The notes beneath the pieces are model-generated. The model ran no database searches. It saw only the letters and a program-made list of their open reading frames with translations, and had not been told where the DNA came from. A stretch of 64,000 nucleotides of DNA from Sphagnum compactum (taxonomy: Eukaryota): positions 2,480,001 through 2,544,000 of the forward strand of contig OZ234493.1 of the NCBI GenBank assembly GCA_965153455.1. Reading direction: 5' to 3'. Below, piece by piece: positions 3,111 through 31,239 of the stretch; positions within the stretch are counted from its first letter, which is position 1, and the number at the start of each line of letters is the position of its first letter. Position numbers and translations under genes: made by a program.

Positions 3111-5260
3111 ATGGGGGCGTCAAATATAGGGATGATGGATTCAGCCTACTTTGTGGGAAGGAATGAGATATTGGCGTGGGTGAACTCCACTTTGCATCTG
3201 GCTCTTTCCAAAGTGGAAGAGGTTGGTAGACCATCCACCTAAAACGCTTTTGATGGTTTCTCTCGTGTGTTTCTCTCGCGGGGATTCCTTGACAAAGCAG
3301 GTTTAAGCCTTAAAACAGAGGTCTTGAGACTCTGAGAAAAAAAGGAGTAATGTGGAATGGAAGTCTCAAGCTTGAGCTCTACTGACTGACGACAATACTC
3401 ATCAAGCAAATCTGTTTTCTTGCATTTCAGGCAGCTTCTGGAGCAGTGTATTGCCAGTTAATGGATGTGGTGCATCCTGGAATGGTGAACATGCACAAGG
3501 TGAACATCCCAACCCTATCATCTGCTCCATATTGCAGTACCCTGTGCATTCATGCAACAGAGGGAGGCTGTTGAGATGAAGTCTTTTGCAATCCACAAAC
3601 AGATCTTTGGGCTTGTAATTTTTTTTTGACGTGGAATTATTATTAACTTGCTTCCATTGACGTTTCAACATGTAGGTGAGCTTTGGGGCAAACACAGAGT
3701 ATGATATGATTCAGAACTACAAGGTGCTGCAGGATATCTTTAACAAGCTCAAGATTGCCAAGGTGCCTCAACTTTTCCTAGGATCCATTGTATTGATTAG
3801 ATCTATTCAAAATGCTGTTACATGGTGCAATGTTTTTCTCTCCAAATGCGCACCTTACCTATTTCCTTATGAGGTGGTATCCAATTCATTGAGAACTTTG
3901 ATCATCTGGCTGCAGCACATAGAGGTCAGCAAACTTGTGAAAGGACGACCGCTCGACAACTTGGAATTCATGCAGTGGATGAAACGCTACTGCGACTCTA
4001 TCAACAACAGCCATATCAATCCCAAGTAAGTAACACTGTACAGATTTGCCACAAATGTTGGAGCTGGCATTTTGTTGTTGACTATATGAAGCAGTAATTG
4101 CTGATGTAAGTAGTGTGGTGATTTCAGGTACAATGCAGCAGAGAGAAGAGAGGGTTGCAAAGGAGGGAAAGAAGTGAATAGAAAAACAGTTATGACTGCA
4201 AACAGTCTCAGTGCACCTCCCATCAAGGCATCATCCAATGCAGGGTCCCGACCAACCACCCCGGGTAACCAGGCTGCACCTCCAGCGTGCCGAACAGAGA
4301 ACACAAATCCCAATAGTAAGCTAAATCTTATTCAATTCTCATTAGAATGAGAACAAAGTGGACTCTCTGTTGAGTGAAGCTCCCATTATTACTTAGTTCA
4401 AGTCACTGAACTTCACTGGTCAGAAAAGTCTATGGATCAGCATGCTGTGGAATTGATCAACCGAGGTGTGTTGCAGTGAGCAGGGCAACAAAGAACCCCA
4501 GTGTGGCTGCATCTCCAGCTCCCAAACAAATCACAGTACTGACTGACCAGGTGATTAAAAAAGAAGCCCTTCTCTGCTGACAGCTACTCTCTTCCAATTT
4601 TTGTTTGGCCTGCCCTGCCTGAAGATTCCCTGTGGTACCAGTTTCAAACTGGGTGTCTCTTGTGGGTGAGCAGAAAGGGAATGTGAAAAGATCTTGTTGC
4701 ATGGATCCATCATAACCTGCAGTGGGTGGTGTTTTCTTCAGATGATGTCTGCAAACCATGAAGACCCACATGCCAAACAGGTTACAGAGCTCAAGCTATC
4801 TGTTGACAGTCTGGAGAAGGAGAGGGACTTCTACTTTGCCAAGCTTCGTGACATTGAGATCCTGTGCCAAGCTCCTGAGCTGAGTCATCTTCCTGCAGTC
4901 ATGGCAGTTCAGCGAATCCTATATGCAGCTGAGGACAGCCCATCGGTGATTGCAGAGGCACAGGCAATGGTGGCAGACTGTGAAGTTGGCAACCATGACC
5001 CACACTCTCATGAGCATCACCACAGCTCTATTTCTGACATAAGTGAGATGGATGATGATGAGGGTCTACTTGGTGGAAGAGATGAAGATGAGCCTCTCTT
5101 TACCAACATGGATGACTCCAGTGAAGTTACGAAAAGAGATGTGCACAAACGGAAGTCCTTACTGGGTTTGGAAGAATCTGAGCTTACATCATCCTTGTCA
5201 CCTCAACAACGGCGACTTAGCTCCTATTCCTCAGACAACCGAGCATTTGCCTCACATTGA
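3111..5260 (+). CDS. EB1: Microtubule end-binding protein EB1 (RP/EB family, EB1c-like C-terminus), 7 coding exons, ~372 aa
   Basis: Exons 3111-3221, 3431-3499, 3676-3762, 3916-4025, 4128-4315, 4477-4550 and 4781-5260 have GT-AG introns and join in frame (1119 nt). CH domain: MMDSAYFVGRNEILAWVN...AASGAVYCQLMD...KGRPLDNLEFMQWMKRYCD. EB-homology domain: LKLSVDSLEKERDFYFAKLRDIEILCQ. Basic KRDVHKRKS in the tail. Confidence 0.95.
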
Positions 5261-9053: not shown

Positions 9054-10817
9054 CTAGCCAGTTCGGTCACCATCAGCAGGGTAAGGCCTGAAACGTGCAT
9101 CAGAACCTCGCTGTGTCTGTCTGCCTGCTACACCATAGCCCCCGCCGTAGCCTGCAGTCCCAGTGCCTGCACCTTCTGCAACTGCAGCTCCTGCCCCCAT
9201 GCCATAACCCCCACTTGCTGCACCCCCTGATCCAGATGAGCCTGTGTTATAGGCATCAGCTCCTGCTGATCTCCATGTGTTGTCTGCATATCCTGAGGTG
9301 TACATGTCCCCATAAACCCCACCATAGCTCCCACTACCAGTACCTCCTGCAGCAGTTCCATACCCACTGGATCCAGTCCCATAGCCGCTTCCTCGACCTC
9401 CATAGCCTGCAGCGGATCCATAACCACTTTCATTGCTGCCATAGCCATAGCCAGAACTGCCATAGCCTGCACTGCTTCCAGTGGCTTGACCCGCTCCAGC
9501 CCCACCTGAACCCCATGCTGCATTCCCATAGCCAGCCATACTGCCACCACTGCTGCCTCCATAGCCTCCTGAGCTACCTCCTGTGCCATATCCCCCTCCT
9601 CCACTTCCCCATGGGCTACGCCCACCCACAGGGCCACTTCCATAACCTCCACTCCCAGCCCCTGCAGTGCCATATCCACCACCACCATACCCACCCCCTA
9701 CTGGAGTGTTTCCATATCCTGCACCGCCATAGCCACCTCCTCCTGTACTCCCGTAACCCATGCTCCCACCATATCCACTCCCGCCATAACCTCCATTCAT
9801 TCCTCCACCATACCCTGCAGCACTGCCATAACCAGCAGCTGCTCCATATCCTGCTGCGCCATAGCCTGCATAACCTCCCCTACCCACAGGAGAGGGGCCA
9901 TAGCGGCTGTCCGCCCGACCACCATAGCCAGCTCCAACAGGACTTGTGTTGTAAGCTTGGCCAAAGCCAGATCCATAGTTAGTGCCTCGGCCTCCACTGA
10001 AGCCACCGCTGTTGTTGCGCCCAGTGGCAACAGAAAGCTCCTTTGGAACAGCCCGTTTGACCTCCACCATCTTCTCGTTGAGCTCATGGAACGGTTTCAG
10101 CAGAACGTTGTCCACTGCATCCTCAGAATCAAAAGTGATGAAGCCAAACCCACGAGGCCTTTGAGTATTGTGGTCATACATTACAACCACATCTGTAATA
10201 GTACCAAACTGCGCGAAATAGTTTCTGAAGTCATCTTCAGTAACAGTGGAAGCTAAACCTCCCACAAATATCTTCTTTGTCCTAGTGTGAGATGCTGCTG
10301 GCCCTTGGCCCCCGCTGCTGCTCCTAGGCACATTCTGCTGCTGCTCATCCCTGGGCACAGCTTTTTTCGCTTCCACCTAAATATACCAATTAAGAGAAAG
10401 ACAGACTTAAACTAGTTATTACTCCCAGTACATACCCTGCATTGCACCACATCCACACGCACGCAACATCCCACGATCCATCCCATCACAGCAGCAGACA
10501 CGACAACCTTTCCCTATAACCCTTATTAGACACCACATTCAACCCCACTCGCATTCCAGCCCTAAAAATCTCCGCCTTAAGTAACTGAGGCTTACCGTTC
10601 TGCCATCGATGGTGTGCTTCTCGTTTACCACTCGATCAGCCACAGCCGGATCCGCAAAAATGACAAATCCAAAACCTCGCGCCCGTCCGGTCGCTCTGTC
10701 CTTCATGATCACCGTTTCCGTCACTTCCCCGTAAGCCTTGAAATAGTCCCGCAGTTTCTCCTCCGTCGTCTCCCATGATATTCCGCCTATGAACAGCTTC
10801 CCCTGATCGGAATCCAT
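9054..10817 (-). CDS. Two-RRM hnRNP A/B-type RNA-binding protein with Gly/Tyr-rich low-complexity tail (RBGD-like), ~514 aa
   Basis: Exon 1 is 10817-10596 (MDSDQGKLFIGGISWET...RGFGFVIF...HTIDGRT), then a GT-AG intron. Exon 2 is 10376-9054 (VEAKKAVP...KKIFVGGL...RGFGFITF...VEVKRAVPKE), followed by GYG repeats and a C-terminal RFRPYP (PY-NLS-like). Confidence 0.95.
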
Positions 10818-17688: not shown

Positions 17689-18799
17689 AGCAAAAAATTC
17701 AAATATGGAAGAATTGGAAATAAGAGACCTTTTCTTTGTAGATTGTCTCTTTACATTTTTTTCCCTTGATTATTTATTTTTTCTTGAAACCTTTTATAAA
17801 TTATTGAATGATCTGCATCAAGATGTTTCTACAAACATGTTATGCCACTTATTTTATAATATGTTACCAGACCTTTCCTTAATTATTTTCTTGAATTCAC
17901 AAAAACAACGGGTTAAAGATGACACAATAAACAACGCATCATGTGAAGAACATCCAAGTATACTTTCAAGTTATTGTTAACATAATAAAAAGACCAACAA
18001 AGTGCATTTCTATTATGAGTTTTCCATTTTTTTTCTTTGAGTTTGTAATTGTTGCAAAATCTGGTTAGTTTTATTTTCATTAGATTCTCCTAACACTTTA
18101 CTTACTTCAGTTTGTAGACTTGAGTTTTCACTTTCTTCCTTTATTTGATTAATTTCAGTTTCATCATTTATGCATATTATATATTCTTTAGTTTGCATTG
18201 TTTGATTATAAAATTCATTTGACCCTTCCATCTTTCACAATTATTCTACAAGGCCAAATGGTGGAGAAACTAAGAAAACAAATATAAGGTTTTGTTATGT
18301 GATGATAGTGCTCTTATGCACAACTAAATATGATGCAAAACATTTACAAGTAAAAAAAGAATACTGCAAAACAAGTAAGCATAAATAAAATTGTCAAAAG
18401 TACAAGGGTTTATGTTTGTTTCCAAAACAATTTATAACAAGCCTTGCACCACAAACCAAAAGCCAAAAATATTAAACAAAAAGGAACAAAAGACATGAGA
18501 TAAAAAATTAAAAAATAGAAATAAGCAAAGGGAAAAATTCTTACTGAAAAAATACAAGTTTTCGATTCTCGACTCCCGACCACTCCCAATTCTTGTAAGA
18601 AGGAATGCAAGGGGGTTGTACAAGATTCTTCAATGAATAACAACACACCAACAGTAGCACACACAAAAAGGAGAATAACAATGCAAAGAACCTTGTATTT
18701 AAAATAGAAAAACAATAGCGCAAAGAGGAAAGCCAAGTTGTCATGCCCGTATGCATGGCCTCATACATGACGGCCATTTACAGGCATGCCAATCATGCC

Positions 18800-18920
18800 T
18801 TTAGGGTTAATGTACGCTCTTAGGGTTAATGTACATTCTTATGTTACTGTATGCTATTAGGTGTTTTAGGGTTATGGCTTGTTTAGGGTTTCAACTTTGT
18901 TGACGGTTGTATAAAAGGCC
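18800..18920 (+). promoter_or_regulatory. Putative element promoter: four TTAGGGTT (telo-box-like) motifs followed by TATAAAA
   Basis: ttagggtt occurs four times in 18801-18892, two of them within a ~19-bp tandem duplication. TATAAAAGG lies at ~18910. Confidence 0.4.
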
Positions 18921-19721
18921 AAGTTCTTCCCTCTTTTGTTAATTTTTCTAGAATTCCTTTGTTAGGGAGAGTTTCCTCCATAGTTTGACTAGGTTTCTAG
19001 ATGTTCACGATGGGTATTACATGACCACCGTTTACATACACTACGTTCTCTTTCCTTCTTTTCAATTTAATTCTAGAAAAAATGTTCTTTATTACTTAAT
19101 GTCGAAAGCGATAGATTTTTCCTGGCTTTGAGTTTCTTGGGTTTCTTTTGCTTGCTGGTTTCTTGTGTTCTTGAGTTGCTGCCACTTTTTCTTTTTTTTC
19201 TACTCTTGTATTGCAGCTACAACATGAACAATAACAACCATAACTAGTAGCAGCATAAGCGAAGGAGAAGGGACACCAGAAACAAAGCTATAAGCTGTGA
19301 AGTTTTGAGTTTCGAAGCTTCGGAGGGACGAAGGAGCGAGCTGCTCTAAAGCTTGTTTTACTGCCAGCTTTAGGTCTTGGGAGCACGTACACACACACAC
19401 ACACAAGGTTTGATTAGAGTACAAGATCTGCACCAGGTGATGCAACCCCACATACATTTGCTTTCGTTGTACATGGGTTTTGAGGTTAACATTTGGGCTG
19501 TGCACTCTTGTGTGTTTTTTAGCTTGCAGTCATGTAGTGAGTAGCCTTTGTAGCAATTCTAGAAGAAGAAGAAGAGAATTAAAAAAAACACAAAGTAGAA
19601 TTAAAAATTTTCTCTCTTTTCTTCTGCACGCCATCGCTGTAGAGCTCGCGAACGCTGATCGCTTTACAGTGTTGTCATCGGCGTAGTTGCCATCCATTGT
19701 AGTCGCTATTCCGTTTCATTT

Positions 19722-19853
19722 GACGTCCAACCTAGTTCCGTCCGACGTCCATCATAGTTTCGTCCCACGTCCGTCGTAGTTCCATCCGACGTCCATCGCA
19801 ATTTTGTTCGACGTCCATCACAATTTCGTTCGACATCCATCAACGTTCGTCTG
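19722..19853 (+). repeat. CpG-rich 22-bp tandem array (~6 copies) in the retroelement leader
   Basis: Units approximating GACGTCCATCGTAGTTCCGTCC start at 19722, 19744, 19766, 19788, 19810 and 19832. Confidence 0.9.
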
Positions 19854-20006
19854 GCCGTTCATCCCCGTCAATGCATCGTATTGTTCAAATCATATGACTG
19901 CATACATACGTAGTCAATATTTTATTCTTCAAACTGTATGTTTGTGTTAGAATTTTGTAACTAGTGCTCTGTATTGCTACAAAATTTTGGGGCATGGGAC
20001 AACACC

Positions 20007-22300
20007 ATGTCCACAGATGATGAGAGCACTACCGCTCAACTAGAGCCAAGGTATCAGCTATGAAGTAACGCACAATCATTTGAGTCGATTTCTTTGAGCT
20101 CACGATCTTCACGACGATACCATCAAGCGTCTATAGCGCCATCGTCATCTAGTACACTTTCACACCATAATCGTATATTTCGTTGCAAGCTGTTACCTTT
20201 ACACCCATATACACCATGGAGGTCAACAGTTCCTCTGGGAAAATTGAGAAGTTCAGCGAAAGGCTAGGTACCATTTCTTTGAGGAAGTTCAAGGCAACTT
20301 TCTCAACTATGGTTTGTGAATTGGAGTTCAAGTATGACGTTAATTACACCAAGGTGTTCGCATTCAAACAACTGGCACGTTATGTGCACTATGAGGCATT
20401 GGATGTCTACGAGCAACATTCTCCGAAGATTTTGGGCGTCACCTAGATCCCCAATCTAGCTTATGCCACAGCCATCGCCATCGCGTCTCAAGCTGCACTA
20501 CAAGCTGCCATTGCACATCATGGGACTATGCCCAATAGTCCAGATTCGGTACTTACTTTAGTAAACCTTTCTCCTCAACAACTCATTGTTGTTATTGCAA
20601 ACATTCCTCGCACCATCGATGCACTAGTTTTTGCTGATCTAGTGGGGGAATTCTTTCGAGTTCTTGAGCTAGAATTTCTCGTTAAGAGTTCTGAAAAAAT
20701 TCTGTAGCTCGCCACCTTCTCTCGGCAGAAGGATGAAACCCTCAAGATGCTCTATAGGAGGCTTCTCAAGCTTAAAGAGGATACTCAAAGCATCATAGAC
20801 CTGGAAGCTGCCCATTGGTATTTTCGTTCATTGGAAGGTACTCCGACACTCTATGCGTAGGTTTTACAACGGGTTTTTGCAGAAGTTGGAGATTCGTACA
20901 TTTTGCTGGATGTGTACAACATTTCTGAAAAGCTGGAACTAGTTCATGCACACTATGAGGCCAGTGTTATGATGCTTCCATCACGTTCAAGGCCTTAGCC
21001 TCCACCAGCTGCGCCAACCAGATCATCACATTTTTCTTCAAGGGCTAAAGCAGTGCACTAGGCTGCACCCATCCTACTTTCTTGCAACTACTGTGGCAAT
21101 CGTGCCCACTAAGCTAGTGAGTGCAACATTCCTTTTGAGGATCTCTTTTGTGATTATTGTGGAAAAAAGGGACATTATGAAGCTGTTTGTTTTGCCAAGT
21201 TCCTGGAACGGAAGCAACCCCGATTAGCACGGCAAAATCTGCCAGTATCTTCTACTGACCCTCAACTAAAAGCCAAGGCACTTCAGCCTTCCGCTCAGGC
21301 TTTCCCCACCAAGGGTAATTCCAGTAAGAATGCTAAGAAGAAGGAACAAAATGTTAACAAGAGGGAGGTGCTTCAAGCCCATGCCGCTCAAGTTCAAACT
21401 CTACAAATTGAATTCGAATCGTTGAAGGCCCAACTTGCTAATCTAAAAGGCAAGTCTTCCCAACCAGCTAGTCATGCCCAACTTGTATAGGGTTCAGTAT
21501 CACGGGAGGGACCTCTTAGGTCGTTCTATGGCCTCTCACACGATGTAATGGTTGGGGAGTATGTTCTTTCCAGTGCACACAATTTAAGTCTCACACTAAA
21601 ATTTGCCACTTCTTTTTGCCCTTCTTACTTCGCGACACAAGAAGCTAGTGTTGCACCCAGAGTCTCTGCTACTAGGCAGGTAATTCAGATTGATGGACGC
21701 GCATCTGGTTCAAGTCCTATTACCAGGGCTAGAGGAGCTCGAGCAGTCATGCCACAATCTTTTCGTCCTCTCAACATGGAAGAAGGACGCACCTTGTTGG
21801 CAAGGGGGGAGGAGACTACTACACCACAAGCTGCTAGGGCATCAAATTCTCATGTCCCAGGAGTACATGTACATCAGGAAAACACACAATTTTCCACTGA
21901 TCAGCTTATGGAGTGCCAACTTCAAATGCGTGAAGTGGCGCAAAAGCTTGTGAGTACACTGTTGTTTAGTTTTCAAGATTTGAAGCTAAACACCACGGAA
22001 ATAATTGCAGTACTAAAGGATACCCTGAACACTACATCAGGTCTTCTACCAATCCCTGATCCACATGCTATAGGGGTCCCATCCAACACCTTGGAGAGAC
22101 ACTCGAATGGCTCACGTGTTGTAGATGACATTCGTAATTTGGTCACTAGTTCTAGCATGGCTAAATTAGTGGGCTCTCCTACCTCTGATTCTACATTCAC
22201 ATATCACAAAGGAGCTAAGAACACCTCACTTGTGGATTTGTTATTCAGCAAAGGTGTTGTGGATAGTCATTCTTTCCACAAAGTCTTTCACTCATTTTCG
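20007..22300 (+). pseudogene. Retroelement gag with two CCHC zinc knuckles and long linker (disrupted)
   Basis: Starts MSTDDESTTAQLEPRYQL.., then KIEKFSERLGTISLRKFKATF... Knuckles CNYCGNRAH*ASEC and CDYCGKKGHYEAVC lie at ~21083-21190. In-frame TAG/TAA stops. Confidence 0.8.
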
Positions 22301-22369
22301 AAGAACTTCCATTGCCACCGGAGTTGCCATTGTCGACAATACTAAGTCAGCAATCCAGGTGGGAGGACA

Positions 22370-22650
22370 TACACCCAGAGTGGTACTTCTTGATACAGGT
22401 GCTCAACCATTGATTCTTGGAGTTTAATTTGCCAAGAAGATGGGCACGCTAAACTCCAAACTACAAAAATCTATGTGGCAAATTCACACCACGGTGGGAG
22501 TGTAGAGGAAGTACTTAGGGAGAGAGCTTGGATTTGATTACACTTAACTTCAATGAAGGTACAGATCAGGAGCTTTGCCTACAGGTCAGATGTTTAGTCA
22601 CCAATGCCACTAGTTACAATGTGCTCATTGGGCAAGAGGCCCTATTTCCA
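22370..22650 (+). pseudogene. Retroviral-type aspartic protease domain
   Basis: VVLLDTGAQPLILG (DTG at 22392) and downstream YNVLIGQEAL. Confidence 0.85.
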
Positions 22651-22999
22651 CCAGGTTTCACAATTGATGATTGCAGACACAGAAAGAAGTTTTGATTGGA
22701 ACCATAGTCCTATGGCTCACCATTGTATGCTCAAGGAAGCACACACTATTTCCTACATATAACAAGCTAACCACGAGTGGATAGAGGGAGATGAAGAGGA
22801 AATAACTTATGCCCAAGTTACTGAAAGCTTGAGGGTGGTTCCTATTGACATTCAACACGGACCAGAGGTTTTATAGAGGTTCAAAGCAGCCCACGAGCCC
22901 TTGGTCAAAGCTCTGTTTAGTTTTGAAAACATGAAGAGCCATGGCGAACCGATTAAGCCAGTACTTCGTCAGCTAATCACCTGGACACCGCCTAAGGAA

Positions 23000-23935
23000 G
23001 GGATTACATTACTAGAGTTCTTTGGTGGTATTGGTACAAGTCTCGAAGCCCTACTATAGTCAGGGATGGTGGTTCGGAGGTATTTCTACGTAGACATTGA
23101 TCCTATTGTAAGGCAAGTGGCGGCATTGAGAATGATGGAGCTCACGGCCAGATTTCCACAACAGTTTGCAAGCACCGCATGGAAGGCCATTTTCATTTTC
23201 TTGCCCTTTGACATACAACTAATTTAGAAGAAACATTTACTTAGCCCCGTGGACCTCATCATTTCAGGTTAGGAGTGTCAAGGATTTTCAGCAACTAGAC
23301 TTGGAAAAGGCTTGAGTGACACAAGATCCGGTCTCTTCACGGACATGGTACGATTGATCACCTGGGCTTAATCCATTTCTCCTACGCTTGGTTATGTAAT
23401 TGAGAACCCCCCTTCTCAGCTTGACCAGAGGGAGAAAGTCTAGGAGCACTACACGCTGGTCAAACATTACTTTGGAGAGCCGCTCCTACTCGATGTGGTA
23501 CAATGCGATTCCTATGCGCACCGACTTTGTAACTAGTGGACCAACCTTGCACCACTTTCAATTTATAGTTGGCTTTGAGATACACCATCAGAGACCCCAA
23601 CCTGCAAGTTTTTCATATATTGGATGAAAAAAGCTCCTGCCAACTAGTTACAAGGCAAGAGAAACCTCCTTGGTTTCCTGCGAACATAATAGGAAAACCA
23701 AGAGGTGTTTGGCCCACCTTTGTCTCCTTCCCAAGAGCACACGCCTTTCAGGGAGATGGACTAGGTCTGGTGTATTGTCATGCTTTAGCCACTTGGGATG
23801 AACCAAGCCTAGAAGAAAGAGAAAGGGCTATGGGGTTCCAAATTAACACTACTAGTCCCACCAAGGTGACTAGATTGGAACGTAACGCTCTACTGGGGAG
23901 AGGCATGGACCTGAACTCCTTTACATGGTTATTGG
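23000..23935 (+). pseudogene. C5 cytosine DNA methyltransferase domain (DNMT3-like), embedded between protease and RT
   Basis: Motif I ITLLEFFGGIG (23003-23035); II YFYVDID; IV VDLIISG*ECQGFS (Cys 23276-23278); V LSDTRSGLF; VI GYVIEN (EN at 23402); VIII DVVQCDSYAHRLCN*WTNL; IX EPSLEERERAMGF; X RLERNALLGRGMDLN. Motifs are in canonical order, with one frameshift near 23560 and several TAG/TAA stops. Confidence 0.9.
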
Positions 23936-24933
23936 TAACTTGTGTACTCTTTCAAATGTACACAACACCAGCACTGATTCAATCAGCTTGCAGTTCTGGC
24001 GATGCGACTACATGGCACCCCAACCAAGTACACTTGCCTATCTTCAACACTCTACACTTCACTCTTAGTGTTGGGGGGGAGGAGGTACCATGTAATTTGA
24101 CTCAAGTTGTTTCTGATACACCTAGTGGTACATCAGCTTCTGGAGAAACAATTACAACCTTCTACGAATCTGCGCAGTTGGATAGTGGACAACTCAATAC
24201 ACCAAGTTCTTCAAACACACTTTCCAACTCCATTCCATGTGTTTCCAACTACCCTTTCGTTATGGGGAACCAGGTCGTAGACTTGCTAATTAAGTATGAG
24301 AATGTGTTCGCATTCTCAATGAAAGACTTAGGTAGGTGTAAGACCATGCAGTTCTCTATAGACCTTACAGATGAAACACCCATCTATTGGAGGAGGCATA
24401 GGTTGAGCAAGCATGAGTGGGAACTTGTAGATGAAAGATGCAAAGGGCTCCATTAGGCTACAGTAATGCCAGTAAAGAAGGATTCAGTTGGATTACGGAT
24501 TGAGAAAAGGATGTGCGAGGATTATAGATCTTTGAACTAAGTTACACCTCAAGACAGGTACCCCATGCCCATCCCTGAAGAACTGTTTGATAGCATTGGA
24601 GATTCAAACATCTTCACAATTATGGATTTGAGGCAAGGCTTCAACTAGATTGTGCTCGCTGCGAAGGATCGTAAGAAAATGGGATTCCATGGAAGTAACA
24701 AGTTGTGGGAATGGCTTGTGATGCCTTTTGGATTGAAGAATGCACCTGTCTTCTTTCAGCGAGTCATGGACCAAGTTCTCGAAGGGGCATATTTCATAAA
24801 GTGCTACATAAATGACATCCTAGTGCATAATAAGGGACTCCTGCAGCACTTGGCTCATCTTGAGGAGTTACTCAAAAGGCTCCATGAAGTCAATATGAAG
24901 ATCTATCCTAAAAAGTGTGAGTTTGCTATCACC

Positions 24934-27322
24934 CACTACTAGAAATCTTGTCATTTGCAACCAGTCACTATGCAACTGGCATGCAACTGGTTGTCGTTTG
25001 CAACTATCTTGGTCATGTTTGCAACTACAAATTCGGATTTGTATAATTTTTGGGCCATACGGTTGTGTGTGCAACTAACATGCAACTAAATGTGTACAAT
25101 ATGGACACGTGTCATAAAAATAATGGCCTAAACTTATACATACTTAAATACTATGCTTAATATATCTACATAGGTTATATATAATAGTATTATGTACCTC
25201 TAGTACTAAGGTTAACCCCATGCTAACTTAGGCTAGTCTAAACTAACCTAGGTTAAATAAACAAAAAAGTTAAACTAACCATGGCTAAATTTATTAGATT
25301 AAATCGATTATGGCTAATTAAATTAATTTAAATTAACTAGGGCTAAATTAAGTTAGGCCAAACAAATTATGGCTAAATCAAGTTAGGCTAAATTAAATTA
25401 AGTTAAATTAAACTAGCTAGGCTAAAATAAACATGGCTAAATTAAGTTAGGCCAAACTAATTATGGCTAAATTAAATTAGGCTATAATAGTTATGGCTAA
25501 AATAAATTAAACTAAATTAAATTAGGATAAAATAAATATGGTATAAATTAAATTATGCTAAAATAAATATGGCTAAATTAAATTAGGCTAAAATTGACAA
25601 TGGTTAAATTAAGTTAGGTTAAACTAATTATTACTGAATTAAATTATGTTAAAGTAAGTTAAATTAAACCATGGTTTAAATATGTTTGACATTATTTTAT
25701 TTTGGAATATTTTTTCAGAAAATGTACATTTGATTAAACAAAAAATTATTCAGAATCAATTAATATGATAATATTTTAAAAATATTATAAATAATCATAA
25801 TTATTAATTAAATGTTTATTATAATTATAGTGATAATAATTATATATAATTAATCAATAGGTATTATATATTTAAATTTCATTATTTATGTTAAAATATT
25901 AATGTAAATAGGCTACATTAATTAACCTACAAGTATATAAACATCCTAAGCAATTATTAATTTAAACTAGATAATAATATTAAAATCATATTTTCATCAA
26001 GTATTCATAATTATTAAATATCCTATAATCACCTTTGAAGTGTAAAAGAAAAGGAGTAATGAAAAACTAACAAGAAGAAAAATAAGGAAAATAAACTTTC
26101 CAAGTTATAAAACGTTTTGTTTTTTTTCTTAAGACCCCTCTTACTTTCAAAGCTCATAACTTTCTTATTTTTTATTCATTTTAAACGATTTAAAATGTTG
26201 TAGGAGCGCCATCTAAAGTCCTACAAATCACATTGGAACTCTAATAGCAAAAAAACAACATAAATTGAACTTTCTAGGTGTTTAAGAACCGGCCTCAATA
26301 GTTTTTTTTTTGAGTTTTTTGACCCCCTTTACTTTGAGGGGCCATAATTTTCTCATTTCTAATCTGTTTTCAACGATTTTTAGTGTGTTAGATGCGCCAA
26401 GAGGAGGGTTTCAAGTTGTGTTTGGACACCAAAAGCAATAGAGCCCTCCCCTGGCTGTTATACTTTAATACAGTAGTTGCATCTAATGTGCAACTAGGCT
26501 GGTCCATGAGGTTTGCAATGGAATGTTTTAACCCATATCTTTTGACTTCTAATTCTATTTGGTTCAGTATATAAATAGGAGCAATAGTTCTATTGAAACC
26601 AAATATCAAGTGCCATTGGGGATGAGCAAATGAAAAAAACTTGACCTTTATGAAATGGTCAAACCTAAAAATAAAATCAGATTATTTTAAACCTATTTAT
26701 ATAACCTAAACCTAGCTTTTCAACCTACTTACATACCTAAATAAATTTACTTACTTAATAGGGTTTAATTATTATCTACCTACCTAGGCACCACGTGTCA
26801 ACATTTTATTAGCCATAGATTTCATTAGTTAATATTTTAAAAATTAAAAATAGGTGGGCCTTGATTGCCACGTGTCACCATATAATTGGTGTTAAAAATA
26901 TTGAACGCGTGTCAAATAGTCAATGAACGTTCCATGGTGTGCCACGTGTCATCATCTTAATGGCAAAACTTTAATGATTGAGATTAATCCAATGAATTTT
27001 TAATTTTGAAAACAAAAAAAGTTAAATAATGACACGTGTCCACAAGCTAGTTGTCTAATTTTTAAACATGTGTCATGTTTTGATTAGTTGCATGTAGTTA
27101 CAAAGAAAGTTGCACATAAGGTGCAACTATACTGGATTGGTATGTATGTATGAACATGTATACTAACACCGTATATACATGTTGCATACGTAATGTCGCA
27201 TGCAACTGCATGTCATGTGCAACTTCTCTTAGGCAACTGCACAAATTTACAGTTGCATGTGTCGCATGCAACTGAATTTCAATTGCAAACGACAGTTGCA
27301 AAACCCAAAATTTCTAGTAATG
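24934..27322. mobile_element. Non-autonomous CACTA (EnSpm) element, 2389 bp, 3-bp TSD ACC
   Basis: Left TIR CACTACTAGAAATCTTGTCATTTGCAAC; right TIR (reverse complement) CATTACTAGAAATTTTGGGTTTTGCAAC. TSD ACC at 24931-24933 and 27323-27325. TGCAAC subterminal repeats at both ends. Removing it restores the RT frame. Confidence 0.93.
25220..25680. repeat. Degenerate ~15-bp AT-rich tandem repeat (TAGGCTAAATTAAAT-like) inside the CACTA element
   Basis: Repeated ggctaaattaa/gttaggc/tatggctaa units. Confidence 0.8.
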
Positions 27323-28199
27323 ACCTTAGTAGTCTACCTTGGACACAAAATTTTGCCAAATGGTATTATGACTCATTGGGCCAAAGTAGTAACCATTTTG
27401 GAGATGCCCAATCCTACTGATGTTCACACTTTGAGGAGCTTCATCGGACTATGTAATTACTACAAGATTTATGTCCAAGACTTTAGTACTATTGTTCATC
27501 CTCTCTATGCATTGTTAAAGAAGGATGTTGTTTAGACATGGAGTGAAGGGGCAGGAATCTTTCAACACACTCAAGGAAAAGCTTTCAGAGTTCCCCATTC
27601 TGAGAAGACCTGATTTCAGCAAGGTCTTCATTCTACACATTGACTGGAGTGCTCTTGGTATTGGTGTTGTTCTTGGCCAACTTAATGAGGAAGGCAAGGA
27701 ATATGTTATCGCCTATGCATCCCGAAGCAACAACAAGGCTAAGAACAACTACTCTTCATACGAAGGGGAGTGTCTTACTATTGTATGGGCCGTCATACAT
27801 TTCAAGCCTTATCTTTATGGCACCAAGTTCACTTTGTATATCAACCACCAGCCTATCAAGTGGTTGATGACCAACGACAAACTTACTGGTAAGTTAGCTC
27901 GCTGGGTGCTTATATTTTAAGAGTATGAGTTCAAGGTTATTCATCGACCTAGTATTACACATCAGAACGTGGATACAATGTTGCGGAGACCCCTCACTAC
28001 CTTTGAAGATTTCTCAAAAGCTAGGCAAGGCTTCGACCAGATTCTAGCAGTACATGTATATTATGCATCTAGTTATTTTGCATTACTGCAATGTAACCTG
28101 GTTGAGCATCCCATTGTGAATATATGGGAGGATTTGGGCACTCTGAGGTTTCTTGAGCATGGGGAATACCCTCCCCAAATTACATCAAGTCATTAGGGT

Positions 28200-29320
28200 C
28201 GCATACAACAGCGGTCCAAACACTACTCATGGAGGGACAATCACCTCGTTCGATGCTTACCACAAGGCGATAGAATGGTTCCTCCACCACATGAACGGCC
28301 TGGTCTTATTCAGAAGGTACACTCGGAGCTTGGACATTTTGGAGTTAAGCGTACTTATAGCCTTCTCGCTCCTCATTACCATTGGAGAGGTATGTATGCT
28401 CAAGTCCGAGACGTCATTGCTAGGTGTGAACAATGTGATGGAGTGAGATTTCCTTCTCCTCTTGACAGCTCACGCTTTCTCCACTCCCTATTCAGAGCAT
28501 GTTCTATCGCTGGTCATGTGATTTAGCTGGAGAGTTACCACAAATCTCCAAGGGCAATGTCTACATCATGATTATGATTGAGCATTTTTCAAAGTGGGTC
28601 GAACTTGTTACGTTGTCGGACAAGTCATCATACAACACCAGCCAGGCTTTCTTACAATAGGTCCTAAGTAGGTTCGGGGCTTGTGATGAGTGCCTTATTG
28701 ATCAAGGATCTGAATTTAAAGGAGAATTCTAAGACCTACTTGATCATGCTCTCATTGAGCATCGTAGGGATCATCCCCAAGCTGATGGCCTTGCAGAGAG
28801 GATGGTTCAGACATGCAAGAAGGGACTTCGAAATATTTGCCTCACTGGGAACAAAAAGGATTGGGACCTAGCCCTACCTTACATCGCCATGGATTACAGG
28901 ATGTCCAAACATGCCTCTTTGTCTCATTTTGTTCCTTACTTTCTACTTTTTGGGAGACATCCCATTCCACCCTCTTCCATTGCTGCAAAAATGGACCATG
29001 TTGTGGACTTTGACTCCCTAGCCACTTGGGTTACGGTCATCGCAGAGAGGGCTGTTCTATTTAGGAAGGTTATGCCCATGGCCATGGAGAACTTGTCCAT
29101 TGCACAACATCAAGACACCTTATGGCATGCACACACGAGGTGGTAGTTACAAACCTAAGGTGAAACAATTTGATGTTGGTGATTTTGTGTATCTCCAACA
29201 ACAACCTAATGATGCTCTAGACATTTCTTTCGGTCGCACTATCTTGAGGATTAAAGCGATTAGGCTTTTAGGTGTGTTGGAGTTGCAAGGAGTTAACGGA
29301 CGCACAATTTGAGACCACTC
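28200..29320 (+). pseudogene. Ty3/Gypsy DDE integrase
   Basis: HHCC: HSELGHFGVKRT..HWRGM..CEQC. Catalytic core: WSCDLAG (D), LIDQGSEF (D), HPQADGLAERMVQT (E). Also WDLALPY, PYFLLFGR and the C-terminal FDVGDFVYL. Confidence 0.9.
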
Positions 29321-29402
29321 CAAAAACTGTGCGCCCTACCACTTGTTGAACTTGGATCCCACCATCATCACATTGACTTGGATTCCTCCACTTGACTATC
29401 CA

Positions 29403-29537
29403 TGTTAGGTATGTCAGAAGACATATGGTGCTGATCAGATGTTGCTTTGCGATAATTGTAATGGTGGATACCATCTGTTCTGCCTCAAGCTGGAGCTCAC
29501 TCAAGTTCCCGTTGACATTTGGTACTATTCATCATGT
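29403..29537 (+). pseudogene. PHD finger at the integrase C-terminus
   Basis: C*VCQKTYGADQMLLCDNCNGGYHLFCLKLELTQVPVDIWYYSSC fits the C4HC3 spacing and has the conserved Trp. The 7th ligand is decayed (TAT for TGT). Confidence 0.88.
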
Positions 29538-31239
29538 TCTCCTGTAGCACCTTCATTTCTACTCAGACCATGCCACGCTTTTCCCGGCTCAAGTCTGGGG
29601 GGGGATACATGAGAATTTCATCTCAGCCTCCTCTTGTGCATTGTATATATATGTGCGTGCATATCTTTTTGGTTGATTAGTTTCTACCTTTGACTGGTTT
29701 TAGTCTTTTTGTTCAGTAGAGTTTACCATGGATTTACACCCTTACGACATGCATGTCACGACACTACACGTCATGACAAAGTAATGCAAAAAGGAGAGTA
29801 ATAGAGTGAAGAGGAGATCAATAGTGTGAAGAAGAGAGCAATAAGGTGAAGAGGAGAACAACAACACAAAGGAGAACAGAGCGTGAGGAGAGGAAAGCAG
29901 AATGTGAGGAGAAGAAAACAAAGTGCAAGGAGAAGGAGAAAGGAGAAATTGGGGCCGGAGTTGAGCTCGAGCCCCATTTTATTCTAGATTTAGGGTTTTT
30001 GTTTTTTTTAGGTTTAATGGTGACACCCACAACAATTCTTTCCCTTATAATAGCCTACACTGACGCCCACAACTTCTTTTTACGTTATAATGGCTTGCAC
30101 TGGCACCCATAGTTTTGTTTTGATCCCCTTAACAACCTACTCCCTAAACCTAAATCCCTCTCATATCCATATCCGGGCATGGATTTAATATCCGCCCTAA
30201 ATATCATATTTTCAAAAAAAAATCTATCTGAATATTATATGACTGAATATCAATTTTTTTGATATCCAGATGATTTCAAAAGTGATATATTAAGCGATAT
30301 CTAAATTTTCAAGATCTTTGCTCAACACTAGTCTAAACACACTAGACTACCCCTTCCCCCCCTTTTTATAAACTTAAAAAGAATGTGTTTATAATTATTT
30401 ATAACCATTATTTGAAAATTTCAGAATTAAAAAACTTAGTGCTGAAGTTACACTACAACAAAAGGTGTCCCTATATGCCAAGTGATTTCATTGGATTTTG
30501 AGTGAATCCACTGGTTGTAGTGAACGAGGACCAATGAAGAAGCAGTAAATTCATTATTCTAGTGAACGGGGACTAGTGAACTACACCCACATTTTGTAGT
30601 AATGTTAAGATTTGGAATTTAATTAATTATTTGACAGTTTGTTGCCAAATCCAATCAAGGAGTATGATATATCCTTTACCTCATGTTTTATTCCATTGCC
30701 AATTTTTTGTTTGTATTATGAAAAGTTCAATTGACAACTGGCAATATCCAAAAATACTAGCCATCCCAAAATACACATGGCTATAGTTTCTCTATGAAAA
30801 CGTGGCAATAAGAAGCCACCTAGGTAAGTTGATAGAAATGACTAAAAAATCCTTGGATCAAGTATAAGAAAATTAGGTATTGAAAATGCCTATTGATGAA
30901 ACCCTGGCAAACTCCATTAAATAAAACACCTAGTAACGACAAAAAAGAAAAGAAGGAACAAAGAGAGAGGACCCAAGTCCCAACCAAAAGAGCAAAACTT
31001 AGAGTGTGTTACAAAGGGGCACTAAAATAATCATGTTCCAGAGCCCCCCCACCCCCTCCCACCCCCACCAATGGTAAGAAGCATGTCAAAAAAAAAAGGC
31101 AAGAAGTTTCTTATTACTTGTCGAGATTTGGCAATAGTTATCTTTGATGGGTATACATGGCCCTCCCATGTTTCTGCCCATTACTAAATCCAAAACTCTG
31201 AAATTAAGTCCAAAAACCCATTGCATATAACCGCATGTG

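What the first reader, a model, noticed from the sequence alone, without database searches (positions are those of the whole stretch)
29403..29537. PHD finger on the integrase: a chromatin reader in the same polyprotein as a DNA methylation writer
Seen: a C4HC3 PHD finger sits where chromoviruses carry a chromodomain. Established: PHD fingers commonly read the histone H3 tail (H3K4 state), host DNMT3 enzymes use a PHD-like ADD domain, and PHD modules are known in some algal Gypsy elements such as Chlamydomonas REM1. Inference: the element may couple histone-guided target selection with self-methylation, giving a mobile reader/writer module.
Basis: partly seen in the sequence, partly recalled or inferred. 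Interest (0 to 1): 0.7.

Follow-up and report, generated by a model that had tools for sequence, protein, structure and literature searches.

The report
PHD-tipped integrase of methyltransferase-carrying moss retrotransposon
A dead copy of a moss Gypsy retrotransposon whose intact relatives end their integrase with a histone-reader-type zinc finger and also carry a DNA methyltransferase, a pairing shared with many green-algal elements that also seem to insert by cutting inside their own terminal repeat.

Summary
The PHD finger is real, but this copy is dead: a stop inside it, one zinc ligand lost, and a frameshift separating it from the integrase core. In the family it is intact: 21 of 40 copies read open from integrase to PHD, and six have one 2,483-codon Gag-protease-DNMT3-like-RT-RNaseH-integrase-PHD frame. 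The pairing is old: 110 of 120 integrase-selected relatives (including Chlamydomonas and Haematococcus) carry both. The finger resembles readers of unmethylated H3K4 and lacks the K4me3 cage. Binding and targeting are not shown. PHD persists in DNMT-less relatives, so ADD-like reader/writer coupling is doubtful. PHD-bearing and DNMT-bearing retrotransposons are each published. Stranger are the ends: B...PPT-A(-gc-B-A) with 4-bp target duplications, self-priming, and a CA-gc-TG palindrome inside the reverse-transcription-defined LTR. That palindrome recurs in distant relatives and in the Chlamydomonas repeat library, suggesting integration by internal cleavage or via circles. This scan had already noted the permuted repeats, self-priming and DNMT in this genome.

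The parts
18735..18738 (+). 5' target-site duplication AAGT
   Evidence: same 4 bases at 29779-29782
18739..19071 (+). Repeat B: begins TGTCATG; TATA-like box at 18910-18916; predicted transcript 5' end/self-primer near 18941-18952
19072..19083 (+). Non-tRNA primer-binding site, complementary to the stretch about 30 nt after the TATA box (Tf1-like self-priming, inferred)
   Evidence: 13-nt complement here, 15-16 nt in young copies; shuffles reach at most 11
19722..19842 (+). 22-bp tandem array in the 5' leader
20007..21500 (+). gag remnant with Cys/His knuckle; broken by stops and a deletion of about 100 bp near 20156
22302..22700 (+). Aspartic protease remnant (DTG motif)
22998..23960 (+). 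DNMT3-like C5 cytosine methyltransferase remnant; motif IV reads W-E-C in intact copies
24220..24933 (+). Reverse transcriptase, 5' part
   Evidence: RVT_1 E 1.3e-22
24934..27322 (.). Later non-coding insertion with CACTA-type ends and 3-bp ACC duplication; absent from the other copies
27323..28000 (+). RT 3' part and RNase H
   Evidence: RT_RNaseH E 1.1e-33
28280..29099 (+). Integrase H2C2 finger and DDE core (stops at 28658, 28730)
29100..29402 (+). Integrase C-terminal helix and SH3/Tudor-like barrel (GPY/F-module position); frameshift near 29128-29136, stop at 29310
29403..29537 (+). PHD finger, decayed in this copy (stop at 29406, seventh ligand Tyr); C4HC3 and C-terminal in intact copies
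29593..29604 (+). Polypurine tract (G run 29597-29604), directly before repeat A and not before a TG
29605..29778 (+). Repeat A, ending CATGACA; this copy is the short B...A form without the trailing gc-B-A
29779..29782 (+). 3' target-site duplication AAGT

Best explanation
The PHD is the ancestral C-terminal module of the integrase in a green-lineage Ty3/Gypsy clade that usually also carries a DNMT3-like domain (shown). It most likely stays on the processed integrase and binds the free, K4-unmethylated N-terminus of histone H3, tethering the integration complex to nucleosomes without the active-promoter mark H3K4me3 and so steering insertions away from active genes (inferred). It works in place of a chromodomain, independently of the DNMT, which more likely acts on the element's own cDNA in the particle (inferred). 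The same integrase appears to use a CA-gc-TG palindrome inside the LTR as its attachment site and leaves 4-bp duplications (ends shown; cleavage route inferred).
For: In frame with integrase in 21 of 40 copies. Variants shared by 4 or more copies give dN/dS 0.21 in the PHD against 0.75 for private variants and about 1.1 in a linker. Seven ligands are invariant in 141 of 141 relatives and the eighth is Cys in 136. PHD is present in 117 of 120 integrase-selected relatives, DNMT in 112. The 60 best PDB matches are led by KMT2D/C, WSTF, CHD4, KDM5 PHD1, ATXR5, BAZ2A/B, DPF, UHRF1, AIRE and PHF21A; none is an ING, BPTF or PHF2 finger. BAZ2A residues that bind the H3 N-terminus (L1692, P1714, G1716) map by equal spacing to L2447, P2469 and G2471, kept in 113, 134 and 106 of 141. 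The Asp after Cys3 is kept in 132. The position two before the His, Trp in K4me3 cages (recalled), is Gly in 129 and never Trp among the residues listed. Insertion flanks are CHG-depleted compared with evenly picked windows: median obs/exp 0.52 vs 0.74, p 0.016; above 1.0 in 1 of 29 vs 7 of 20, p 0.005.
Against: No binding or ChIP data. The flank bias is equally explained by selection against genic insertions in a haploid-dominant plant, and CHG depletion is only a proxy. The PHD dN/dS contrast rests on few sites (12:10 vs 6:18, Fisher p 0.07). The BAZ2A K4-contacting acid (D1688) maps to Ala in the moss finger and is acidic in only 83 of 141 relatives. Target duplications show no sequence preference. 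Protease cleavage sites were not mapped. The relative sample was limited to proteins of 1,365-4,346 residues, which favours DNMT-bearing forms.
Confidence: 0.55

Rival explanations
1. ADD-like reader/writer coupling: the PHD brings or activates the DNMT3-like domain at H3K4me0 nucleosomes, so that the new insertion or its surroundings are methylated.
For: Both domains in 110 of 120 relatives, and PHD in 41 of 43 DNMT-selected proteins that reach the integrase. In most algal-type members the DNMT lies directly before integrase and could stay fused to it. Both are under purifying selection (DNMT 0.21 vs 0.75, p 1e-6). Host DNMT3 ADD also reads H3K4me0 (own knowledge).
Against: PHD is kept without DNMT in P0070, P0071, P0088, P0102, P0106 and P0113, on several branches. 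DNMT lies before RT in the moss form. L034 is an in-frame DNMT-less young copy. K. nitens DNMT showed no activity in yeast. Motif IV is W-E-C rather than P-C in 70 of 148 scored DNMT regions, with 46 unscored.
Confidence: 0.15
2. The PHD has a structural or non-histone role in the integration complex, for example holding or sensing the long DNA arms left when integrase cuts inside the LTR, or binding a host repair factor for the B|A junction.
For: PHD and internal palindrome occur together in relatives whose contigs show no DNMT (L218, L219). Ordinary Gypsy controls lack the PHD, and L217 has its tract directly before TG.
Against: The surface residues that are conserved are those of the H3 N-terminal pocket. 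PHD fingers were gained by unrelated element classes with other end structures.
Confidence: 0.18
3. The PHD acts after or apart from target choice, as a general nucleosome tether that raises integration efficiency or shapes chromatin at the new site, without mark-specific targeting.
For: Copies are spread over nearly all large contigs with no clear positional bias (KS p 0.18). H3K4me0 covers most of a genome (own knowledge).
Against: Flanks are non-genic by proxy. A PHD-bearing C. reinhardtii Gypsy inserts between genes 2.6 times more often than expected, though its authors allow selection as the cause.
Confidence: 0.12

Closest known systems
KnitGypsy-Dnmt3 of Klebsormidium nitens (de Mendoza et al. 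2018, PMC5890265)
   Same: DNMT3-like domain inside a Gypsy Pol frame; DIRS-like split repeats with Gypsy domains.
   Different: The text and text supplements I could search name no PHD (Fig. 4c not visible), present it as a K. nitens-lineage acquisition and give no mechanism for the repeats. Here it is in a moss, with relatives in chlorophytes.
PHD-bearing Gypsy families of Chlamydomonas reinhardtii (Craig et al. 2023, PMC9940879): Gypsy-7a_cRei, Gypsy-21_cRei
   Same: PHD in Gag-Pol, with a targeting role already suggested. Gypsy-21 has this clade's integrase-PHD end (read by eye). Several library records end PPT + short repeat + CA-gc before a TG-starting LTR; the Gypsy-7a left LTR lacks the last 8 bp of the right one.
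   Different: No DNMT link or mechanism in the passages read. Gypsy-7a has a TGG-type primer site and a different integrase tail by eye, so it is not shown to be in this clade.
Chromoviruses (Tf1/sushi, Tcn1, Chlamyvir)
   Same: Reader module at the integrase C-terminus; self-priming as predicted for Tcn1 and Tf1/sushi.
   Different: PHD instead of chromodomain; attachment site displaced 175 bp into the LTR; DNMT present.
REM1 of C. reinhardtii
   Same: Algal Gypsy with a PHD.
   Different: Its integrase part is truncated and antisense. The original paper was not available.
EpiLTRs (bioRxiv 10.64898/2026.05.21.726589)
   Same: Chromatin reader and DNA methyltransferases in one retrotransposon.
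   Different: Chromodomain, adenine methyltransferase and a DNMT4-sister enzyme; stated there to be distinct from Gypsy-DNMT3.
H3K4me0-reading PHD fingers (BAZ2A/B, KDM5 PHD1, ATXR5, CHD4, UHRF1)
   Same: Best sequence and fold matches; pocket residues kept.
   Different: Binding not measured; the K4-contacting acid is variable.

Membership tests
PHD finger | C4HC3 ligands, this copy | tested here: not met
   7 of 8 ligands and an internal stop
PHD finger | C4HC3 ligands, family | tested here: met
   28 of 40 copies; 7 ligands in 141 of 141 relatives, the last in 136
PHD finger | Pfam PF00628 above cut-off | tested here: met
   35.4 bits in the window, 44.4 in an intact copy; cut-off 24
H3K4me3-reading PHD | aromatic cage | tested here: not met
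   Gly at the recalled cage-Trp position in 129 of 141; no ING, BPTF or PHF2 finger among 60 of 85 PDB matches shown
H3K4me0-reading PHD | H3 N-terminal pocket residues | tested here: met
   L2447, D2450, P2469, G2471 conserved
H3K4me0-reading PHD | measured, methylation-sensitive H3 binding | not testable with these tools
   needs a peptide assay
DNMT3 ADD domain | ADD profile, next to the catalytic domain | tested here: not met
   no ADD family; about 1,000 residues between DNMT and PHD
Chromovirus | chromodomain at the integrase C-terminus | tested here: not met
   no Chromo match
Chromovirus | RT/IN phylogeny with named chromoviruses | not tested
   the tree held no named reference elements
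Ty3/Gypsy | PR-RT-RH-IN order, DDE triad, PPT, short TSD | tested here: met
Ty3/Gypsy | full LTR at both ends with TG next to the PPT | tested here: not met
   the PPT precedes repeat A; TG lies 177 bp further on
KnitGypsy-Dnmt3 type | DNMT3-like domain in the Pol frame | tested here: met
KnitGypsy-Dnmt3 type | split direct repeats | tested here: met
   B...A-B-A in 19 of 34 copies with both ends
KnitGypsy-Dnmt3 type | direct sequence relationship to the K. nitens element | tested here: inconclusive
   the only K. nitens hit (P0125) is partial, falls in the clade and shows no DNMT
KnitGypsy-Dnmt3 type | methyltransferase activity | not testable with these tools
   catalytic Cys in all 32 copies that cover it, of 40; activity unmeasured
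DIRS/PAT (tyrosine recombinase) | tyrosine recombinase and no TSD | tested here: not met
   no recombinase family in the polyprotein; 4-bp TSDs

The most novel reading that the evidence does not exclude
An old, still active Gypsy clade spanning chlorophyte algae to mosses has moved its integrase attachment site to a palindrome inside the LTR, so that it inserts as an opened one- or two-LTR circle (or by internal cleavage followed by end joining) and always opens the 5' site. It aims this with an H3K4me0-reading PHD. In the boldest version its own DNMT3-like enzyme marks the cDNA, possibly shielding one of the two palindromes. This would be a DDE retroelement that routinely uses the circle-junction route long set aside for retroviruses.
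Probability: 0.35. Interest if true: 0.8.

Novelty: new variant of a known kind. Interest (0 to 1): 0.52.

Why it matters
The PHD alone is ordinary: retrotransposon PHD fingers are described as widespread, but I found no measured ligand for one in the papers read. This family offers natural intact fingers and a sharp prediction (unmodified H3, blocked by K4me3). The survey widens Gypsy-DNMT3 from one charophyte to a clade reaching Chlamydomonas, where chromatin maps and genetics exist. The end structure matters more: it would explain the DIRS-like repeats noted without explanation in K. nitens, and LTR finders that expect two full LTRs would miss or misdate these elements.

Tried and rejected
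Complex prediction of the PHD with host H3 residues 1-35 gave no verdict (score 0.29, mark 0.34; alignment not used); not used either way. RNA-library contigs from four moss or plant metatranscriptomes cover all 30 bins of an intact copy, but they are short, mostly diverged and rich in C>T/G>A changes, and may be DNA; not taken as expression. The AlphaFold model of the integrase tail is of modest quality (pLDDT 64.7, pTM 0.33, 7 sequences); its top Tudor-PHD matches have 12-17 A rmsd, so only the separate domains are read from it. DIRS membership rejected (no recombinase, TSDs). Random opening of a two-LTR circle at either palindrome rejected: 0 of 30 fetched A-gc-B junctions (of 31 found) are followed by the primer site. 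No target sequence preference. A lean toward contig ends (11 of 36 within 1.5 Mb, 5.9 expected, p 0.04 after the fact; KS p 0.18) is not relied on. IMG/VR gave one ordinary Gypsy. The careful tree did not finish; the quick one is cited. Self-primer check: 16 nt in L200, 12 nt of doubtful position in L219, none in L218. No palindrome was seen in L135, L220 or L221, whose contigs end within about 160 bp of the frame's end. Literature searches listed no title or abstract describing DNMT3 with PHD in this clade or an internal attachment site; subscription papers, the REM1 paper, Craig's thesis and figure panels were not visible.

Full report
Observation. The interval 29403-29537 (+) encodes a PHD finger from first to last Cys, scoring 35.4 bits on Pfam PHD against a cut-off of 24 when stops are read as X. 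It ends a decayed Ty3/Gypsy element at 18739-29778 with gag, protease, a C5 methyltransferase, RT (split by a 2.4-kb CACTA-type insertion at 24934-27322), RNase H and integrase. In this copy the finger is dead: a stop at 29406, Tyr at the seventh ligand, a 2-bp deletion near 29128-29136 and three more stops after the first catalytic Asp.

Family in this genome. The genome has 382 Mb in 702 contigs; runs holding the family include moss metagenomes. A DNA search scored 40 of 128 candidates, and I fetched the 39 other than the window. Six have one 2,483-codon frame, differing from each other by 3-59 bases, so the family moved recently. Pfam gives protease, DNA_methylase, RT, RNase H, H2C2, rve and PHD in that order, the PHD ending five residues before the stop. 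Of 40 copies, 21 are open from integrase core to PHD end, 28 keep all eight ligands and 31 have over 80% of the DNMT within the stretch fetched. Variants shared by four or more copies give dN/dS 0.21 for the PHD, 0.21 for the DNMT and 1.08 for a linker, against 0.75, 0.75 and 1.13 for private variants. The contrast is strong for the DNMT (p 1e-6) and borderline for the short PHD (p 0.07). These copies were the best matches to the PHD region and are not a random sample.

Relatives. A search with the DNMT region found 53 long proteins; 41 of the 43 that reach integrase have the PHD. A search with the integrase region, PHD left out, found 150, of which 120 were listed: 117 have a PHD, 112 a DNMT, 110 both. 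Named members come from Chlamydomonas reinhardtii, Haematococcus, Tetrabaena, Scenedesmus and Monoraphidium, plus a partial Klebsormidium nitens protein without detectable DNMT. Of the three without PHD, one is partial and one ends in a degenerate Cys pattern. Six long proteins have the PHD but no DNMT. The DNMT lies between RNase H and integrase in most algal-type members and before RT in the moss-type ones. A quick integrase tree of 78 rows puts 65 in one clade (SH-aLRT 98) apart from ordinary Gypsy controls, with the moss family in a DNMT-before-RT subgroup (93). The length window of the searches favours long, DNMT-bearing forms.

What the finger is. Among 141 relatives seven ligands are invariant and the eighth is Cys in 136. 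The best solved relatives are KMT2D/C, WSTF, CHD4, KDM5 PHD1, ATXR5, BAZ2A/B, DPF/MOZ, UHRF1, AIRE and PHF21A fingers (60 of 85 shown). That most of these read unmodified H3 is my own knowledge, supported for BAZ2A/B by passages of PMC4291147 and by PDB titles. BAZ2A L1692, P1714 and G1716 map by equal spacing to L2447, P2469 and G2471 (113, 134, 106 of 141). The K4-contacting D1688 maps to Ala here and is acidic in 83 of 141. The recalled cage-Trp position is Gly in 129 of 141. A modest model shows helix, five-strand barrel, then PHD. So it works like an H3K4me0 reader by sequence; binding is not shown.

Targeting. Flanks of 29 insertions have lower CHG obs/exp than 20 evenly picked 5-kb windows (0.52 vs 0.74, p 0.016; 13 young copies 0.46, p 0.031; CG p 0.055), and gene-like values above 1.0 occur in 1 of 29 against 7 of 20. 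This fits avoidance of genes but cannot separate targeting from selection.

Reader/writer coupling. The DNMT is DNMT3-like (best PDB matches DNMT3A) and keeps its catalytic Cys in all 32 copies that cover it, although the residue before it is Glu and not Pro. Coupling is doubtful: the PHD outlasts the DNMT on several branches, the DNMT changes place, and a young copy with 99% identical repeats lacks it in frame (L034). In de Mendoza 2018 the K. nitens DNMT gave no methylation in yeast, called inconclusive.

The ends. Of 34 copies with both ends, 14 (including the window) read B...A, 19 read B...A-gc-B-A and one has a further unit. All start TGTCATG and end at the CA of A (two are mutated there). 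A 4-bp target duplication is exact in 29 as scored, exact in 2 more after a one-base boundary correction by eye, and has one mismatch in 3. The polypurine tract precedes A, not TG. The 5' B is followed by a stretch complementary to the bases about 30 nt after a TATA box (15-16 nt in young copies; 200 shuffles reach at most 11), the Tf1-type self-priming layout. Reverse transcription should therefore define the LTR as A-gc-B, while integrase cuts at the palindrome GACA-GC-TGTC inside it. The spacer is 2 nt in all 19 own copies listed, whereas the B|A joint, where the blunt cDNA ends would meet, is exact in 11 of 18 scorable copies and off by -3 to +1 nt in 7; one joint holds about 135 extra bases (L123). 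None of 30 fetched A-gc-B junctions is followed by the primer site, so the 5' palindrome is the one opened. Close relatives from metagenomes repeat the pattern. Distant ones at 42-47% identity (L200, L218, L219, L222) have a G tract and, 50-110 bp later, the same palindrome (cut by the contig end in L222), whereas control L217 has TG right after its tract. L200 has a 16-nt self-primer match of different sequence. In the C. reinhardtii repeat library 9 of 11 hits to the 10-mer lie within about 60 nt of a G tract on one strand (read by eye), Gypsy-3, -6 and -7a internal records end tract, short repeat, CA-gc, and the paper notes only that the left LTR of Gypsy-7a lacks 8 bp. Inferred routes: one- and two-LTR circles opened at the palindrome, or internal cleavage of linear cDNA with end joining afterwards. 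The short form could also arise by recombination between the two A copies. I cannot separate these.

What is known. KnitGypsy-Dnmt3 has the DNMT3 and DIRS-like repeats (PMC5890265: passages, sections 10 and 11, supplement search; figure not visible). Retrotransposon PHDs are called widespread (PMC6673714, bioRxiv 2021.11.30.470311, PMC8557442: passages), and a targeting role was suggested for Gypsy-7a (PMC9940879: passages, supplement searches, parts 283 and 297). Reader plus writers in one element is described for EpiLTRs (bioRxiv 2026.05.21.726589: passages and section 8). I also read passages of PMC12344493, PMC6317226, PMC2774666 and PMC8166343. The REM1 paper was not held. Searches listed no paper describing the DNMT3-plus-PHD clade or the internal site; unseen figures, bioRxiv supplements and a thesis may cover it.

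Earlier scan notes. After reaching this reading I found that the scan had noted the permuted repeats, the self-priming and the DNMT in this genome. They agree and are not independent support.

Verdict. A real PHD in a dead copy of a live family; most likely an integrase-borne reader of unmodified H3 (0.55), not coupled to the DNMT. New variant of a known kind; interest 0.52, carried mainly by the breadth of the clade and its end structure.

Noticed in passing
window 24934-27322: Non-coding insertion in RT with CACTA...TAATG ends, a 3-bp ACC duplication and a 15-bp AT-rich tandem array: a non-autonomous CACTA-type DNA transposon.
   Followed up: partly
L034 (G000:C17, about 5.89-5.90 Mb): Young copy with 99% identical repeats and a single 2,074-codon frame from which the whole DNMT is deleted in frame; L067 and L036 have partial DNMT deletions.
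   Followed up: partly
P0047, P0032, P0050, P0033 after the PHD: Algal-type members extend beyond the PHD (median 327 residues): a PTM/DIR17-like Tudor match below cut-off and, in 15 of 74 long tails, motifs recalling amino-methyltransferases (motif recalled). A possible second reader and second methylase.
   Followed up: partly
L123 about 1790-1920: About 135 bases of other sequence between B and A at the joint, as expected from end joining.
   Followed up: no
L062 (G000:C1, about 1.359 Mb): Copy with two gc-B-A units at the 3' end, 99.7% identical.
   Followed up: partly
G000:C19 (4.9 Mb): 3 of the 40 scored copies lie on this smallest numbered chromosome-scale contig seen, against about 0.5 expected by length.
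   Followed up: no
L218-L223: Clade members sit in contigs filed under bacterial or archaeal metagenome-assembled genomes; most likely algal contamination.
   Followed up: no
PMC9940879 supplement, Gypsy-7a_cRei: A lab-active element that looks unrelated in its primer site shows the same displaced end with an 8-bp A segment, so the layout may extend beyond this clade.
   Followed up: partly
P0053: A Closterium protein with Copia-type RT (PF07727) matches part of the DNMT region (E 5e-20, 38% coverage).
   Followed up: no
window 4670-5257 (+) and 9057-10376 (-): Host gene exons: an EB1-like C-terminal motif and an RRM protein in a GC-rich frame.
   Followed up: no
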